A stretch of 64,000 bases of DNA from Escherichia phage WPEC5, in sequence record PV654397.1, one strand, 5' to 3'. The notes under the pieces are model-generated. The model did not search any database. It worked only from the letters and a program-made list of their open reading frames with translations, and was not told where the DNA came from. Position 1 is the first letter of the stretch, and the number at the start of each line of letters is the position of its first letter. The translations under genes and the position numbers were made by a program. Of the stretch, positions 35,751 through 42,241 are shown piece by piece.

Positions 35751-36095
35751 TTAGTACTCAACGATGTGTTCTTCATAATCACCATTAGGCTCCTGTTTAG
35801 ATTCTTTCATTAGTACTACCATTTTATGTACTAATGGCATAGGAAACTCCAAATCCCATACTAATGATTCTTGAAAGTATTCCTCTTCAGATAAAGTACT
35901 TAAATCTTTAATATCAACGTGCTTGTATATTTTATTTTCGTAATTAACAAATGATATATATAAATCACTAACATAAGAATCATAGGTAATTGTGAATGGT
36001 TTACCCTTGTAATCCATTACATCTCTACATAGACTACTTTTGATATATGTATGTTCAAATGATTTATATACCTTGAGTTGTATATTAGTTTTCAT
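35751..36095 (-). CDS. Family A paralog, hypothetical
   Basis: Motif EEEYFQESLVW; last family A member. Confidence 0.6.
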   Translation of the reverse strand: MKTNIQLKVYKSFEHTYIKSSLCRDVMDYKGKPFTITYDSYVSDLYISFVNYENKIYKHVDIKDLSTLSEEEYFQESLVWDLEFPMPLVHKMVVLMKESKQEPNGDYEEHIVEY

Positions 36096-36369
36096 ATTTC
36101 TCTTTATTAGCTTGTTTAGATTGTGTGGTTTTATAGTGAATTAAATCTATTAATGTAATCAAGTACAACGTCAAATAGTACTCTTGTTGATCTGTACCTA
36201 ATGATACAAAGAACTTGTGCTCATAGATTAAAACCTGTTTCTCTTCAAATGGACATTTAATCCTCTGTATAGGCTTAAGTAAATGATAGTACTTATTAAA
36301 TCTATGATACATTTCTAGTTCTGTCAGTACTTTCATATTAAACACGTACTCCATTAGCTGTAGCATCAC
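36085..36369 (-). CDS. Family B small paralog, hypothetical
   Basis: Motif FVSLGTDQQEY. Confidence 0.55.
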   Translation of the reverse strand: MMLQLMEYVFNMKVLTELEMYHRFNKYYHLLKPIQRIKCPFEEKQVLIYEHKFFVSLGTDQQEYYLTLYLITLIDLIHYKTTQSKQANKEKYEN

Positions 36370-36559
36370 GTAAAGCTGTCAAATACTTCTGTACTGCTTG
36401 CTCTTGCTTATTTGTACCTAAAAGTATATACATCCATAATTCACTGTAATGTACATCTTCTGTATAAGGGTTGTTGTAACTTTTTGATAATATAGCATCA
36501 AATTCAGATGCATGAACCCTTGCGAACTTAAGCATATCTTGTTGTGTTATGATTCTCAT
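36338..36559 (-). CDS. Family B small paralog, hypothetical
   Basis: Motif ILLGTNKQEQ. Confidence 0.55.
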   Translation of the reverse strand: MRIITQQDMLKFARVHASEFDAILSKSYNNPYTEDVHYSELWMYILLGTNKQEQAVQKYLTALRDATANGVRV

Positions 36560-36771
36560 ATCTTTTCCTGTACTATCTGCATAAGAATCTCTATGTGTGA
36601 ATTAACAGTTCTCTCTTGATGCTGTGTTCCTAAGAGTGTCAGTACTATCATATCTGAACGCAAAAGATTTTTCTGAAGTTCACTTATATCAGTTCTTGAA
36701 TCAAGTGCCATATATTTGTGATTATTCTTCCTGAATAGTGCCAAGTACTCTTGATTTGATATTTCCTTCAT
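36556..36771 (-). CDS. Family B small paralog, hypothetical
   Basis: Motif TLLGTQHQER. Confidence 0.55.
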   Translation of the reverse strand: MKEISNQEYLALFRKNNHKYMALDSRTDISELQKNLLRSDMIVLTLLGTQHQERTVNSHIEILMQIVQEKI

Positions 36772-36998
36772 AGTTTATCCCTGATGCCATTTAAAAGTGC
36801 TCTAATATGCTCCTGTACGAATTTGTACTGACTGTCTGTTCCTAGAGTGAGTAGTAATCTTAAATCTGAACTTTTGATATGATATTCTAAATCATTATTT
36901 GATTCTTGCATCAGTTTCTTAAAGGATGAGAAGTTTGCAGCCATTAGTTCAATGTATTCTGCTGTTCCTAGGGGTTTGTGTATTGGCTGTTTGTGCAT
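36768..36998 (-). CDS. Family B small paralog, hypothetical
   Basis: Motif LTLGTDSQYK. Confidence 0.55.
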   Translation of the reverse strand: MHKQPIHKPLGTAEYIELMAANFSSFKKLMQESNNDLEYHIKSSDLRLLLTLGTDSQYKFVQEHIRALLNGIRDKL

Positions 36999-37210
36999 TT
37001 TAATTTTATTACCCTTTTGAGTGTATTAATGTAATTATACACATTGGCTTCTTGATAGTTAGTTCCCAGTGTAGCTTGAACATAGATTTCATTTAACTTA
37101 ATAATTTTATCAGTATCTGGTAGTTTTGATGTGTTAATGGCAAATAACTTCAAAAACAGTCCATTTAAGATTGTTAGGTATTCTTCGTCGGTAATGATTC
37201 GCATTTGCAT
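36968..37210 (-). CDS. Family B small paralog, hypothetical
   Basis: Motif ATLGTNYQEA; near-duplicate of 37174..37416. Confidence 0.6.
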   Translation of the reverse strand: MQMRIITDEEYLTILNGLFLKLFAINTSKLPDTDKIIKLNEIYVQATLGTNYQEANVYNYINTLKRVIKLKCTNSQYTNP

Positions 37211-37416
37211 TGGATAAACCTTTTTAGTTCTTTGATGTAATCATTAATATTGTATTCTTGATAGTTAGTCCCTAGTGTAGCTTGAACATAGATTTCACTC
37301 ATTAGAATATTTTTTTCTTCATCAAGTAAATCTGTGGTCTTTGCTATATACAATTTTAGAATTAAACTACTTAATAGTTCGTGGTATTCACTTGGTGAAA
37401 GGATTTTCATTTGCAT
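37174..37416 (-). CDS. Family B small paralog, hypothetical
   Basis: Motif ATLGTNYQEY. Confidence 0.6.
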   Translation of the reverse strand: MQMKILSPSEYHELLSSLILKLYIAKTTDLLDEEKNILMSEIYVQATLGTNYQEYNINDYIKELKRFIQCKCESLPTKNT

Positions 37417-37622
37417 GTTCTCAGTACAGATTCTTTAAGTTCATCGATGTAGTCCTCAACGAATTGCTCTTGGAAGTTAGTTCCAACATATAAAAGAACT
37501 CTTAAATCTGCTCTAAGTAACTCTTTTTCATCCTCATCTATATCAGACAATGTTATGTTTAAGAATTTACTTGTATTAAAGATTAACAATTCTGTTTGTT
37601 CACTGTGGTTTAAAATTTTCAT
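37407..37622 (-). CDS. Family B small paralog, hypothetical
   Basis: Motif LYVGTNFQEQ. Confidence 0.55.
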   Translation of the reverse strand: MKILNHSEQTELLIFNTSKFLNITLSDIDEDEKELLRADLRVLLYVGTNFQEQFVEDYIDELKESVLRTCK

Positions 37623-40582: not shown

Positions 40583-40796
40583 CTAGTTTATCCTGTATAA
40601 CATTCATTAATTGTTCGACATATTCTGTGCAAAACTTATCTTGATATTGAGTCCCCATAAAGTACAGCAACCATAGCTCATTAACTTTAGCTCGCATTTG
40701 GTTCCATGTAAGGCTGGGGTCATCGTAGACTATCCTTGCTATAGGGGTTAGTTTACGGACTATAGTTTCATATTCATCTAGTGTTAAGTGTTTCAT
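40539..40796 (-). CDS. Family B small paralog, hypothetical
   Basis: Motif YFMGTQYQDK. Confidence 0.55.
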   Translation of the reverse strand: MKHLTLDEYETIVRKLTPIARIVYDDPSLTWNQMRAKVNELWLLYFMGTQYQDKFCTEYVEQLMNVIQDKLDDYWLTKHEDFIRS

Positions 40797-41017
40797 TTAC
40801 CTAAATCCCTGACATGACATTTTAAGGCCGTGATGTGGTTGTCAACCATAACCTCCTGATAGTTTGTTCCTACAAATGGTATTAATGTTGAGTCTGTTAG
40901 TATAACATACTTTTCATTGGATGTTAGTGATTCATCATCGTAAACTTGAAGTCTAAAGTTCTTCCCTTGTTCTAATCGTTTAAGATATTCTTGGGTGTTT
41001 ATGTCTTTCATTTGCAT
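40793..41017 (-). CDS. Family B small paralog, hypothetical
   Basis: Motif PFVGTNYQEV. Confidence 0.55.
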   Translation of the reverse strand: MQMKDINTQEYLKRLEQGKNFRLQVYDDESLTSNEKYVILTDSTLIPFVGTNYQEVMVDNHITALKCHVRDLGK

Positions 41018-41226
41018 TTGTCCCTTATTAGATCAGTGAGGGCAACTATGTGTGCAACAACATACTCTTCCTGAAAGTTCGTCCCCAGTACAGCCATCAT
41101 GCGTATATCGGTGGTGTTTATCCTGTGTTCCCTTACACATAAACCTTCTGTGTGAGGAAGTGTAAAATATTTGTTTATTGCAGCAATGATAATTTTATTC
41201 TTCTCGTAATTACTTAAATGTTTCAT
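41008..41226 (-). CDS. Family B small paralog, hypothetical
   Basis: Motif AVLGTNFQEE. Confidence 0.55.
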   Translation of the reverse strand: MKHLSNYEKNKIIIAAINKYFTLPHTEGLCVREHRINTTDIRMMAVLGTNFQEEYVVAHIVALTDLIRDKCK

Positions 41227-41435
41227 AGTTTGCTCTTAATGTATTTCTGGAGTGCAATTATATACTCATTCAAGAAGTGCTCCTGATAATCTGTGCCGAG
41301 GAATGCACCCAATAGTATATCATTTTCCAATACTAATGCTAAGTTCAAATCATCAGTCTCTTCATATACTATGAGAATTTCAAGTTGTCTTGCAGCGACG
41401 CGTTCGGTATATAGATTTGAGTTAATGCTATTCAT
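41223..41435 (-). CDS. Family B small paralog, hypothetical
   Basis: Motif AFLGTDYQEH; near-duplicate of 41432..41644. Confidence 0.6.
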   Translation of the reverse strand: MNSINSNLYTERVAARQLEILIVYEETDDLNLALVLENDILLGAFLGTDYQEHFLNEYIIALQKYIKSKL

Positions 41436-41644
41436 AGTTTACTCTTAATGTAATTCTGGAGTGCAATTAAGTATTCCCCTACATAATACACCTGAAAGTC
41501 TGTATCCAAAAATGCACCCATAAGTAAATCTTTTTCTAATACCCTTGATAAGTTAAGGTCTGCATTTGAATTGTATATAATTAAGATTTTATTCTGGACA
41601 GAAACAAAACGTATCTTATATTCTTCTGGTGTTAAAAAAATCAT
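41432..41644 (-). CDS. Family B small paralog, hypothetical
   Basis: Motif AFLDTDFQVY. Confidence 0.6.
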   Translation of the reverse strand: MIFLTPEEYKIRFVSVQNKILIIYNSNADLNLSRVLEKDLLMGAFLDTDFQVYYVGEYLIALQNYIKSKL

Positions 41645-41850
41645 AGTTTACTCTTAATATCTTCTATTAAAAAATGAATCCAATCGTCAACATACTCTTC
41701 CTGATGGTTTGTGTTCAGTACAGCCAACATGCGGATCTCTGCTCTTGCAACTTGGATTTCAGTTTTAGAAAGGTCTTTGCTGATATCAAACATTAAGTCC
41801 ATGTATTTCAAGATAAGACCGAATGATTGGGTTCGTGTTATAGTTTTCAT
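41641..41850 (-). CDS. Family B small paralog, hypothetical
   Basis: Motif AVLNTNHQEE. Confidence 0.55.
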   Translation of the reverse strand: MKTITRTQSFGLILKYMDLMFDISKDLSKTEIQVARAEIRMLAVLNTNHQEEYVDDWIHFLIEDIKSKL

Positions 41851-42047
41851 TGTTTCCTCGTGGACAATATTTCATTTTTCAATGCATCCATATATTGAAT
41901 CACCCATCTTCCCTGATAGCTTGTACCCAATGTAATCAAAAGGTATAACTCAATTCGTTCTAAGTTTGTGTCTGTGTTATAAATCTTTACCATGTTTTTA
42001 CGTAACAGTTCTTGATAATCTTCTTTATTTAAAATACGCATTTTCAT
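41847..42047 (-). CDS. Family B small paralog, hypothetical
   Basis: Motif ITLGTSYQGR. Confidence 0.55.
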   Translation of the reverse strand: MKMRILNKEDYQELLRKNMVKIYNTDTNLERIELYLLITLGTSYQGRWVIQYMDALKNEILSTRKQ

Positions 42048-42241
42048 AGTCTACCTTTTATGTCCCTTCGTAATTCTTGTAAGTATAGTTCGATATACTT
42101 TTCTTGATAGTTAGTTCCTATGAAAAGTTTCATAACCAATTCACGCTTATATGCAATACCACGGATATGTGACATATGTAGGATATATGCCATGTTGGAT
42201 ATGAGTGTGTGGTTGTGCTCTTCTTGAGTTAAAATACGCAT
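42044..42241 (-). CDS. Family B small paralog, hypothetical
   Basis: Motif LFIGTNYQEK; first gene of the B array in transcription order. Confidence 0.55.
   Translation of the reverse strand: MRILTQEEHNHTLISNMAYILHMSHIRGIAYKRELVMKLFIGTNYQEKYIELYLQELRRDIKGRL

What the first reader, a model, noticed from the sequence alone, without database searches (positions are those of the whole stretch)
36085..42241. Second tandem array: 33 small paralogs (65-95 aa) with an LGTNYQE core
27 consecutive small ORFs at 36.1-42.2 kb, plus copies at 20.8-21.2, 33.8-34.3 and 35.5-35.7 kb, share hhh-G-T-[N/D/Q]-[Y/F/H/K]-Q-[E/D]-x2-[V/I]-x2-[Y/H/W]-[I/L] with a variable N-terminal helix-like segment. I cannot assign a function.
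Basis: seen in the sequence. Interest (0 to 1): 0.85.

Follow-up and report, generated by a model that had tools for sequence, protein, structure and literature searches.

The report
Jumbo-phage array of 33 mini-proteins
A giant E. coli phage (Asteriusvirus) carries 33 highly diverged copies of a gene for a ~70-residue four-helix protein, 28 of them packed head-to-tail in one operon just inside the terminal repeat. The array is real, translated-looking and conserved, but it was already noticed in phage 121Q and its function is still unknown.

Summary
A profile built from the array finds 28 (not 27) back-to-back minus-strand genes at 36085-42241 plus five outliers, 33 in all. They cover 100% of the sense strand, against 5% in shuffles.

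The window comes from an Asteriusvirus jumbo coliphage (98% identical to WPEC3). The genes are real coding genes. Orthologues in 10 related genomes are almost all intact (303 full-length, 12 partial). Pooled dN/dS is about 0.38-0.40, and constraint follows a buried/exposed helical pattern. AlphaFold gives a very confident four-helix model (pLDDT 97).

LGTNYQE is the H3-H4 turn, a bridge to the N-terminus and a helix cap. It looks structural, not catalytic.

No Pfam, PDB or fold match exists; only PHROG 4148 (unknown function) matches. The family is confined to Asteriusvirus-like phages.

The array has its own sigma70-type promoter about 40 nt past the boundary of a ~21-kb direct terminal repeat, and its genes are translationally coupled. 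No protein of this size is in the published virion proteome.

My best guess (about 0.4) is an early, non-virion panel of scaffolded binding proteins aimed at host or competitor targets. Hua et al. 2017 already mentioned this array in 121Q, so the finding is a known unknown.

The parts
36085..42241 (-). Tandem array of 28 family-B genes (65-85 aa from the profile-aligned ATG), with no intergenic space
   Evidence: HMM E 1e-18 to 3e-27 for each gene. 100% ORF coverage against 5% in shuffles. 15 of 27 junctions are ATGA overlaps; the others run from +2 to -32 nt.
42272..42299 (-). Sigma70-type promoter of the array (TTGACT-16-TATTAT), 30 nt upstream of the first ATG; a GGAG Shine-Dalgarno site lies 8 nt before the ATG
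   Evidence: Consensus scan, 10 of 12 matches; sequence read. Function is inferred, not shown.
42242..42338 (-). Leader/intergenic segment between the terminal-repeat boundary and the first array gene
   Evidence: The DTR end annotated in vB_Ec-M-J (record position 21525) maps to window position 42339, with 422 of 429 nt identical.
42339..63864 (-). Context: presumed direct terminal repeat, dense with small genes that each have a near-perfect sigma70 promoter. It is co-oriented with the array and transcribed toward it.
   Evidence: DTR annotation of vB_Ec-M-J (21,525 bp) and BF17's ~20.5 kb DTR (PMC10059673). 103 promoter-like sites against 62 expected, ten of them 12/12. The right limit is extrapolated from the DTR length.
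42044..42241 (-). B gene 1
41847..42041 (-). B gene 2
41641..41850 (-). B gene 3
41432..41644 (-). B gene 4
41223..41435 (-). B gene 5
41008..41226 (-). B gene 6
40793..41011 (-). B gene 7 (variable slot; no close orthologue in PBECO4)
40539..40796 (-). B gene 8
40310..40561 (-). B gene 9
40074..40325 (-). B gene 10 (atypical motif MTGTDKNA)
39875..40090 (-). B gene 11
39660..39878 (-). B gene 12 (the sequence modelled by AlphaFold2)
39451..39663 (-). B gene 13
39206..39454 (-). B gene 14
38965..39222 (-). B gene 15
38726..38968 (-). B gene 16 (variable slot)
38505..38729 (-). B gene 17
38285..38503 (-). B gene 18
38038..38283 (-). B gene 19
37827..38069 (-). B gene 20
37600..37830 (-). B gene 21
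37407..37622 (-). B gene 22
37174..37410 (-). B gene 23
36968..37204 (-). B gene 24
36768..36998 (-). B gene 25
36556..36771 (-). B gene 26
36338..36559 (-). B gene 27
36085..36336 (-). B gene 28 (last of the run)
35523..35747 (-). Outlier B copy between two family-A genes
   Evidence: HMM E 1e-10; PHROG 4148 E 2e-10
34052..34264 (-). Outlier B copy
   Evidence: HMM E 1.8e-8
33816..34100 (-). Outlier B copy
   Evidence: HMM E 9.7e-8
20924..21151 (-). Outlier B copy (GS instead of GT)
   Evidence: HMM E 1.7e-7
20755..20946 (-). Outlier B copy
   Evidence: HMM E 6.5e-13; PHROG 4148 E 1e-16

Best explanation
Family B is a lineage-specific multigene family of small, soluble, cytoplasmic, non-virion proteins. 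The host RNA polymerase probably makes them early in infection from a sigma70-type promoter that sits just inside the left terminal repeat. The 28 genes form one translationally coupled polycistron. Every paralog keeps the same compact four-helix scaffold. The scaffold is held by a hydrophobic core and by the LGTNYQE element, which consists of a Gly turn, a Thr that bridges to the N-terminal strand, and an N-x-x-E helix cap. The exposed helix faces differ from paralog to paralog. I infer that the proteins act as a panel of binding modules. Each would dock on a different host target, or a target of a competing element: defence effectors, toxins or housekeeping factors. Phage lineages would keep a core set and swap or lose the rest. 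What is shown: the genes, their selection regime, the fold prediction, the operon anatomy and the restricted distribution. What is inferred: early timing, binding as the activity, and host or defence targets.
For: The genes are real and constrained. 33 members were found. 303 copies are full-length and 12 partial across 11 genomes. Pooled dN/dS is 0.395 against PBECO4 and 0.38 against a second lineage. Per-column omega is about 0-0.1 at G47, T48, Q51, L62 and the core hydrophobics, and 0.5-0.77 at exposed positions. The fold is four helices with pLDDT 97.4 and pTM 0.83; a bridge links residue 2 to T49, and helix 4 starts right after N50-Y51. Conserved polar residues fall at helix N-termini (T5/E8 and N50/E53), the capping-box pattern, so no active site needs to be invoked (inference). 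The proteins have no transmembrane segment or signal peptide, and their pI ranges from 4.4 to 10. Expression context: a TTGACT-16-TATTAT promoter and a GGAG site lie in the only gap, about 40 nt beyond the DTR boundary. The DTR itself is packed with consensus sigma70 promoters. In the related phage PA5oct, DTR genes are the early, host-RNAP-dependent class (PMC7318152), and phAPEC6 encodes only a sigma factor, not an RNAP (PMC7247149). No 7-11 kDa protein appears among the 62 virion proteins of phAPEC6. Turnover is typical of host-interaction genes: 42 orthologue groups in 11 genomes, only 17 of them universal; slot-wise mosaic divergence with dS from 0 to above 0.7; tandem run length of 28, 23, 17 and 12 in different lineages. 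The family is restricted to Asteriusvirus-like phages among 1.84 billion representative proteins.
Against: There is no direct evidence of transcription timing, translation, binding or any target. No column shows omega above 1, so a classic arms-race signal is absent at the point-substitution level. 17 slots are strict 1:1 orthologues, which fits stable housekeeping-like roles as well. There is no similarity to any known anti-defence or host-takeover protein. The 'early' assignment rests on a consensus promoter match and on analogy with a distant relative. Reported DTR sizes differ between Asteriusvirus papers (8.3 kb in UE-S1).
Confidence: 0.4

Rival explanations
1. Family B works together with the neighbouring family-A superfamily (100-210 aa, motif LSEEExFQESLVxD). 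B proteins would be cognate partners of A proteins (chaperones, inhibitors, immunity-like proteins or adaptors), so the two arrays form one system.
For: A and B are interleaved at their border in the window (34248-36095). They also occur together in every lineage examined: L006, L016 and 121Q. Copy numbers are similar, 33 B against at least 28 A by HMM. B domains are occasionally fused to other domains: P0099, L016_13496-13897 and P0078.
Against: The genes are not arranged as alternating pairs; 28 B genes run without any A gene. hhalign finds no relationship between the families (probability 0.1%). Family A is equally unannotated, so no toxin or effector activity is known that would need a partner. 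No co-variation test was possible with the genomes in hand.
Confidence: 0.2
2. The array is leftover 'stuffer' from tandem duplication that filled an enlarged capsid (the ratchet idea of Hua et al. 2017). The genes have little or no present function.
For: Hua et al. interpret the 121Q array as genome expansion by tandem duplication (PMC5646251). Adjacent paralogs are more alike than distant ones (30.5% against ~23%, permutation p<1e-4). Copy number varies between lineages. dN/dS of ~0.4 is relaxed.
Against: At 32% GC, unconstrained ORFs would be broken quickly, yet 303 of 315 copies are full-length in 11 genomes. Constraint follows the fold. Paralogs have diverged to 23% identity while keeping the fold-defining residues. 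ATG starts, ATGA coupling and SD-like sites are maintained.
Confidence: 0.1
3. The proteins are nucleic-acid-binding regulators or architectural proteins, by analogy with the ~35-copy zinc-ribbon expansion of Bacillus phage G proposed by Iyer et al. 2021.
For: They are small helical proteins in an early region next to DksA/TraR-type zinc-finger genes. Phage G provides a precedent for a large expansion of putative transcription factors (PMC7824862).
Confidence: 0.08
4. The ORFs are not translated, and the motif comes from a repeated non-coding DNA or RNA element read in one frame.
For: The only DNA shared between copies is ~17 nt at the motif, and synonymous codon choice there is skewed (AAC 17: AAT 1; TAT 16: TAC 0).
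Against: No tandem DNA repeat is detected and there is no Rfam hit. All 28 frames are open in this genome and in 10 others. dN/dS is below 1 with fold-shaped constraint. Synonymous changes are frequent at the G and T codons among orthologues (17 and 21 changes).
Confidence: 0.01

Closest known systems
[quoted passage not shown] 2017, mBio, PMC5646251)
   Same: It is the same protein family and the same locus. All tested members hit PHROG 4148 over their full length. 121Q has 23 tandem members plus 2 outliers in the 40 kb examined. The PHANOTATE/PHROG notes in SHEFM2K point to 121Q p330.
   Different: The literature offers only one sentence and a duplication interpretation. The genes are not 'very similar' (median identity 23%). 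No structure, selection analysis, promoter context or function has been published, as far as the searched library shows.
Host-takeover / pre-early gene blocks in terminal repeats of large virulent phages (Bacillus phage SPO1 host-takeover module; T5 pre-early region; PA5oct DTR early genes)
   Same: Many small genes of unknown function lie in or next to a long direct terminal repeat. They are driven by strong host-type promoters and expressed first (PA5oct: PMC7318152; SPO1 and T5 from my own knowledge).
   Different: Those blocks consist of mostly unrelated genes, each with its own promoter. Here 28 paralogs of one fold sit in a single coupled operon just outside the repeat. There is no homology to any SPO1, T5 or PA5oct protein.
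Terminal multigene families of large eukaryotic DNA viruses (ASFV MGF110/360/505, poxvirus host-range families and 'genomic accordions')
   Same: Tandem, diverged paralog arrays lie near the end of a linear genome. Copy number varies between strains and there is a core-plus-variable repertoire. Those families act on host immunity (my own knowledge).
   Different: This is an analogy only: a different virus realm, much smaller proteins, and no evidence here for immune targets or for recent accordion-like amplification (paralogs are old, at 23% identity).
Bacillus phage G ~35-copy zinc-ribbon expansion (Iyer et al. 2021, PMC7824862)
   Same: It is another jumbo phage with more than 30 copies of one tiny domain, also mentioned alongside 121Q by Hua et al..
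   Different: The fold is unrelated (zinc ribbon against four-helix bundle with no Cys pattern). It was proposed to be DNA-binding; nothing supports that here.
Colicin/pyocin DNase immunity proteins (Im7/Im9, Pfam PF01320)
   Same: They are ~85-residue four-helix proteins with one conserved and one variable recognition element, often found as orphan arrays. This resemblance was recalled from memory and then tested.

Membership tests
PHROG 4148 (unknown function) | Significant full-length match to the PHROG profile HMM | tested here: met
   10 of 10 tested members match with E 2e-10 to 1.5e-24, covering profile positions ~1-72 of 74.
121Q-type tandem array (Hua et al. 2017) | Homologous genes present as a long tandem run in phage 121Q | tested here: met
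   23 consecutive HMM hits (121Q gp319-341) plus 2 nearby; BFVD structural hits to 121Q proteins. The paper gives no gene numbers, so identity with 'their' array is inferred.
Early / host-takeover gene class | Transcribed by host RNAP in the first minutes of infection | not testable with these tools
   There is only a consensus promoter, position next to the DTR and analogy with PA5oct. No Asteriusvirus transcriptome was found.
Early / host-takeover gene class | Not a virion component | tested here: inconclusive
   No 7-11 kDa protein appears among the 62 phAPEC6 virion proteins. Small proteins can escape MS, and gp numbers were not mapped one by one.
Known anti-defence / defence proteins | Profile match to a known family | tested here: not met
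   PADLOC gives only four single-member weak hits (best E 0.0016). Pfam gives no recurrent hit. PDB gives nothing.
Colicin/pyocin immunity proteins (PF01320) | Sequence-profile or fold similarity to Im7/Im9 | tested here: not met
Hha/YmoA H-NS modulators (PF05321) | Sequence-profile similarity | tested here: not met
   hhalign aligns only 16 columns with probability 2.4%; no Pfam hit.
Helix-turn-helix DNA-binding proteins | HTH fold or profile match | tested here: not met
Non-coding tandem repeat / structured RNA | DNA-level periodic repeat or Rfam match | tested here: not met

The most novel reading that the evidence does not exclude
The array is a hard-wired repertoire of scaffolded mini-binders, a phage counterpart of an innate 'antibody panel'. 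About 30 variants of one four-helix scaffold are co-expressed at the onset of infection. Each neutralises a different strain-variable E. coli/Salmonella defence effector or toxin, possibly in concert with the family-A array. The variable slots would set host range and the unusual persistence of Asteriusvirus phages in bacterial isolates.
Probability: 0.15. Interest if true: 0.85.

Novelty: already known. Interest (0 to 1): 0.45.

Why it matters
Two orphan multigene families, B and the neighbouring A superfamily, occupy roughly 35 kb of this phage, about a tenth of its genome, and nobody knows why. If they are adaptive host-interaction repertoires, they would explain part of jumbo-phage genome gigantism better than a passive capsid-size ratchet. 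They could also account for host range or for the carrier-state persistence reported for Asteriusvirus. They would also provide a natural library of stable ~70-residue binder scaffolds with an unmatched fold. If they are dispensable filler, that would be direct evidence for the ratchet model. Either answer is reachable with one deletion mutant and one transcriptome.

Tried and rejected
- **Pfam, all 33 members individually at E<=1:** only scattered single hits; the ten-member scan showed the same single weak hits (DUF2087, Ty3_capsid and others), nothing recurrent.
- **PADLOC:** nothing recurrent.
- **PDB profile searches with 33 and 114 sequences:** only E>1 noise.
- **Foldseek against PDB:** best E 3.7, TM<=0.54.
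- **BFVD:** only the family's own members.
- **afdb50:** library unavailable.
- **Exhaustive HMM search of 1.84 billion representatives:** 100 hits, all small stand-alone relatives, apart from a spurious tape-measure-like repeat protein (P0098) and a 269-aa fusion (P0099) whose C-terminal part has no annotation.
- **Two word-index profile searches:** only the same clade.
- **Leads recalled from memory and rejected by hhalign:** Hha, colicin immunity Im7, and common origin with family A.
- **Single-sequence AlphaFold of an outlier copy:** unreliable (pLDDT 68).
- **Site-wise selection:** no column with omega above 1.
- **Orthology between the window array and the divergent metagenomic array L006:** none resolvable; identities are 26-44%, the same as between paralogs.
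- **Literature searches:** no Asteriusvirus transcriptome and no functional work on these genes.

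
Full report
**What the window is.** The 6.3 kb around the finding matches 35 phage records, 31 Escherichia and 4 Salmonella. 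All are Asteriusvirus-type jumbo phages of 310-386 kb. The best match is WPEC3 at 98% identity; PBECO4 is about 88% identical. Every gene under the match is annotated 'hypothetical protein'. GC content is about 32% in the array. Almost all long ORFs in the window are on the minus strand.

**Checking the observation.** I built an HMM from the minus-strand ORFs of 36085-42241 and searched all 378 window ORFs of at least 40 aa.
- Median pairwise identity is only 23% (range 10-62%). Four positions are at least 90% conserved: G48, T49, Q52 and L63.
- The sense strand is 100% covered by 28 ORFs of at least 60 aa. Dinucleotide shuffles give 1.6 ORFs and 5.5% coverage.
- The motif occurs 22 times against 0.035 expected and never on the antisense strand.
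- Tandem Repeats Finder sees no DNA array. The only DNA shared among copies is the ~17 nt that encode G-T-N-Y-Q-E. There is no Rfam hit.

**Are the genes real?**
- *Selection against other lineages.* Against PBECO4 and a second lineage from an E. coli assembly, the genes pair up colinearly. Pooled dN/dS is 0.395 and 0.38.
- *Orthologue groups.* Over 11 genomes the 319 family genes with E<=1e-5 fall into 42 orthologue groups; 17 of these are strictly 1:1 in all 11 genomes. At E<=1e-3, 303 copies cover at least 85% of the profile and 12 are partial.
- *Site-wise constraint.* A per-column count of amino-acid against synonymous changes gives omega of about 0-0.1 at G47, T48, Q51, L62, Y58 and other core positions. 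It gives 0.5-0.77 at positions that alternate with them, which is the signature of amphipathic helices. No column exceeds 1.
- *Starts and coupling.* All members start with ATG at profile position 1. 15 of 27 junctions are ATGA overlaps, and the rest run from +2 to -32 nt. SD-like motifs precede 16 of 33 starts, against 14% background.

**Structure.** AlphaFold2 on the paralog alignment gives pLDDT 97.4 and pTM 0.83, with all five models at or above 96.6. It predicts helices at residues 6-14, 17-25, 31-45 and 52-71, plus a one-residue bridge between residue 2 and T49.

Read against this model, LGTNYQE breaks down as follows. It begins with the last hydrophobic residue of H3. A Gly turn follows, then the Thr that bridges to the N-terminal strand, then an N/D-x-x-E capping box that opens H4. 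T/S5-x-x-E8 does the same for H1.

I therefore interpret the conserved motif as the structural clasp of the fold, not a catalytic or ligand site. This is an inference. The proteins have no hydrophobic segments, and their pI ranges from 4.4 to 10.

**Homology and fold searches.**
- Pfam gives nothing significant, only scattered single weak hits that do not recur across members. PADLOC likewise gives nothing recurrent.
- PDB by profile gives nothing with either 33 or 114 sequences.
- PHROGs recognises the family as phrog_4148, 'unknown function'.
- An exhaustive HMM scan of 1.84 billion representatives finds only 100 clusters, essentially all stand-alone proteins of 52-96 aa.
- Named hits are E. 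coli assemblies carrying ~350-kb phage contigs, or Escherichia phages. tblastn hits the same 35 phage records.
- Three leads I recalled from memory were tested and rejected: Hha, colicin immunity protein Im7 and a link to family A.

**Anatomy of the locus.**
- *Promoter.* The only gap is upstream of the first gene. It holds TTGACT-16-TATTAT at 42299-42272 and a GGAG site 8 nt before the ATG at 42241.
- *Terminal repeat.* In phage vB_Ec-M-J a 21,525-bp 'Direct Terminal Repeat' is annotated. Its inner end maps to window position 42339, about 40 nt upstream of that promoter. BF17 was reported to have a ~20.5-kb DTR, but UE-S1 only 8.3 kb, so the size is not settled.
- *Upstream region.* The part of the window beyond 42.3 kb is packed with small genes. 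Each is preceded by a near-consensus sigma70 promoter: ten perfect 12/12 sites, and 103 sites against 62 expected.
- *Position in other records.* In records that start at the physical end, the array lies at 21-31 kb.
- *Analogy for timing.* In the related PA5oct, DTR genes are the early class and infection depends on host RNAP. phAPEC6 encodes a sigma factor, not an RNAP.
- *Virion proteome.* The phAPEC6 virion proteome has 62 proteins, and none is in the 7-11 kDa range.

Together these results make 'early, host-RNAP-transcribed, non-virion' the most economical reading, but none of it is direct evidence.

**Evolution.**
- Adjacent paralogs are more alike than distant ones (30.5% against ~23%; permutation p<1e-4). 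This is a trace of tandem duplication.
- Divergence between close phages is mosaic. Some slots are 98-99% identical with dS near 0, while their neighbours are 32-58% identical with saturated dS. This points to cassette exchange by recombination.
- The tandem run has 28 genes here and in PBECO4, 23 in 121Q, 17 in the divergent JNE01, 12 in a 101-kb metagenomic contig, and at least 15 in another metagenomic contig.
- The most divergent arrays show no 1:1 orthology with the window's slots.

**Neighbours.** Downstream lies a second orphan superfamily ('family A', 100-210 aa, motif LSEEExFQESLVxD) with at least 28 members between 7 and 36 kb. A and B are interleaved at their border here and in every other lineage I looked at. 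hhalign sees no relationship between them, and family A has no annotation either.

**Prior knowledge.** Hua et al. [quoted passage not shown] A 2026 review repeats this. 121Q gp319-341 are this family. I found no functional, structural or transcriptomic work on it.

**Verdict.** It is a known unknown, not a discovery.

My best mechanistic reading (about 0.4) is an early-expressed panel of scaffolded binding proteins directed at host or competitor targets. The rivals are:
- partnership with family A (0.2);
- duplication 'filler' (0.1);
- nucleic-acid binding (0.08);
- a non-coding artefact (about 0.01).

Noticed in passing
window 7241-36095 (minus strand), e.g. 35751-36095, 35197-35571, 25917-26342, 10670-11221: There is a second orphan multigene superfamily ('family A', 100-210 aa, motif D-x-S/T-x-L-S/D-E-E-E-x-F-Q-E/Y-S-L-V-x-D). 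28 ORFs match by HMM. It is interleaved with family B in the window, L006, L016 and 121Q. It has no Pfam, PDB or PHROG function.
   Followed up: partly
window 42339-64000 (minus strand), e.g. 43821-43794, 46081-46054, 49359-49332, 53376-53349: This presumed terminal-repeat region is packed with small genes, each behind a near-perfect sigma70 promoter (ten 12/12 sites). Several promoters are embedded in a conserved 28-nt hairpin, AAAGGGATTGACTCCGGTCAGTCCCTTT. The hairpin contains the -35 TTGACT and is followed by GCTATTATAT, so it looks like a combined terminator/promoter cassette.
   Followed up: no
G-T-N-Y codons of the 33 family-B genes, e.g. window 39935-39951: Synonymous codon choice at the motif is strongly skewed against the window background: Asn AAC 17 against AAT 1 (background AAC 31%), Tyr TAT 16 against TAC 0 (background 58%), Gly GGA 15 of 30 (background 24%). 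This may reflect gene conversion or a recombination joint between paralogs, or a constraint at the nucleic-acid level.
   Followed up: partly
window 41223-41435 and 41432-41644 against L002 (PBECO4) 23421-23633 and 23630-23845: Two adjacent paralogs (51% identical) find their best matches in PBECO4 in swapped order. This suggests recombination or gene conversion between neighbours.
   Followed up: no
L003/L004/L005 10001-10810 (P0099); L016 13496-13897; L013 436-801 (P0078): In other Asterius-like phages the B domain occurs fused to unrelated C-terminal extensions of roughly 50 to 200 residues, in products of 269, 133 and 121 aa. The 200-residue partner in P0099 has no homologue in this window and no annotation.
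   Followed up: partly
window 34892-35137 (minus): A conserved 81-aa predicted membrane protein (PHROG 8826) sits inside the A/B border. It travels with the arrays in L003 (9324-9569) and in the divergent contig L006 (4081-4344).
   Followed up: no
window 51132-51389 and 50712-51068 (minus): A TraR/DksA-type C4 zinc-finger ORF lies in the promoter-dense repeat region and could be an early modulator of host RNA polymerase. Its neighbour is a GNAT-like ORF, a label taken from the position-matched 'acetyltransferase' annotation in 121Q. WPEC3 annotates a second DksA/TraR gene nearby.
   Followed up: no
L016 4172-4423: In a 101-kb metagenomic relative, one small gene of the equivalent early region carries a precomputed Pfam ParE_like (toxin) hit.
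   Followed up: no
whole clade (protein hits P0107, P0125, P0132 and others): Many family members come from ~345-385-kb contigs inside E. coli genome assemblies. This is consistent with the reported persistence of Asteriusvirus phages in bacterial isolates (bioRxiv 10.1101/2024.12.31.630880).
   Followed up: partly
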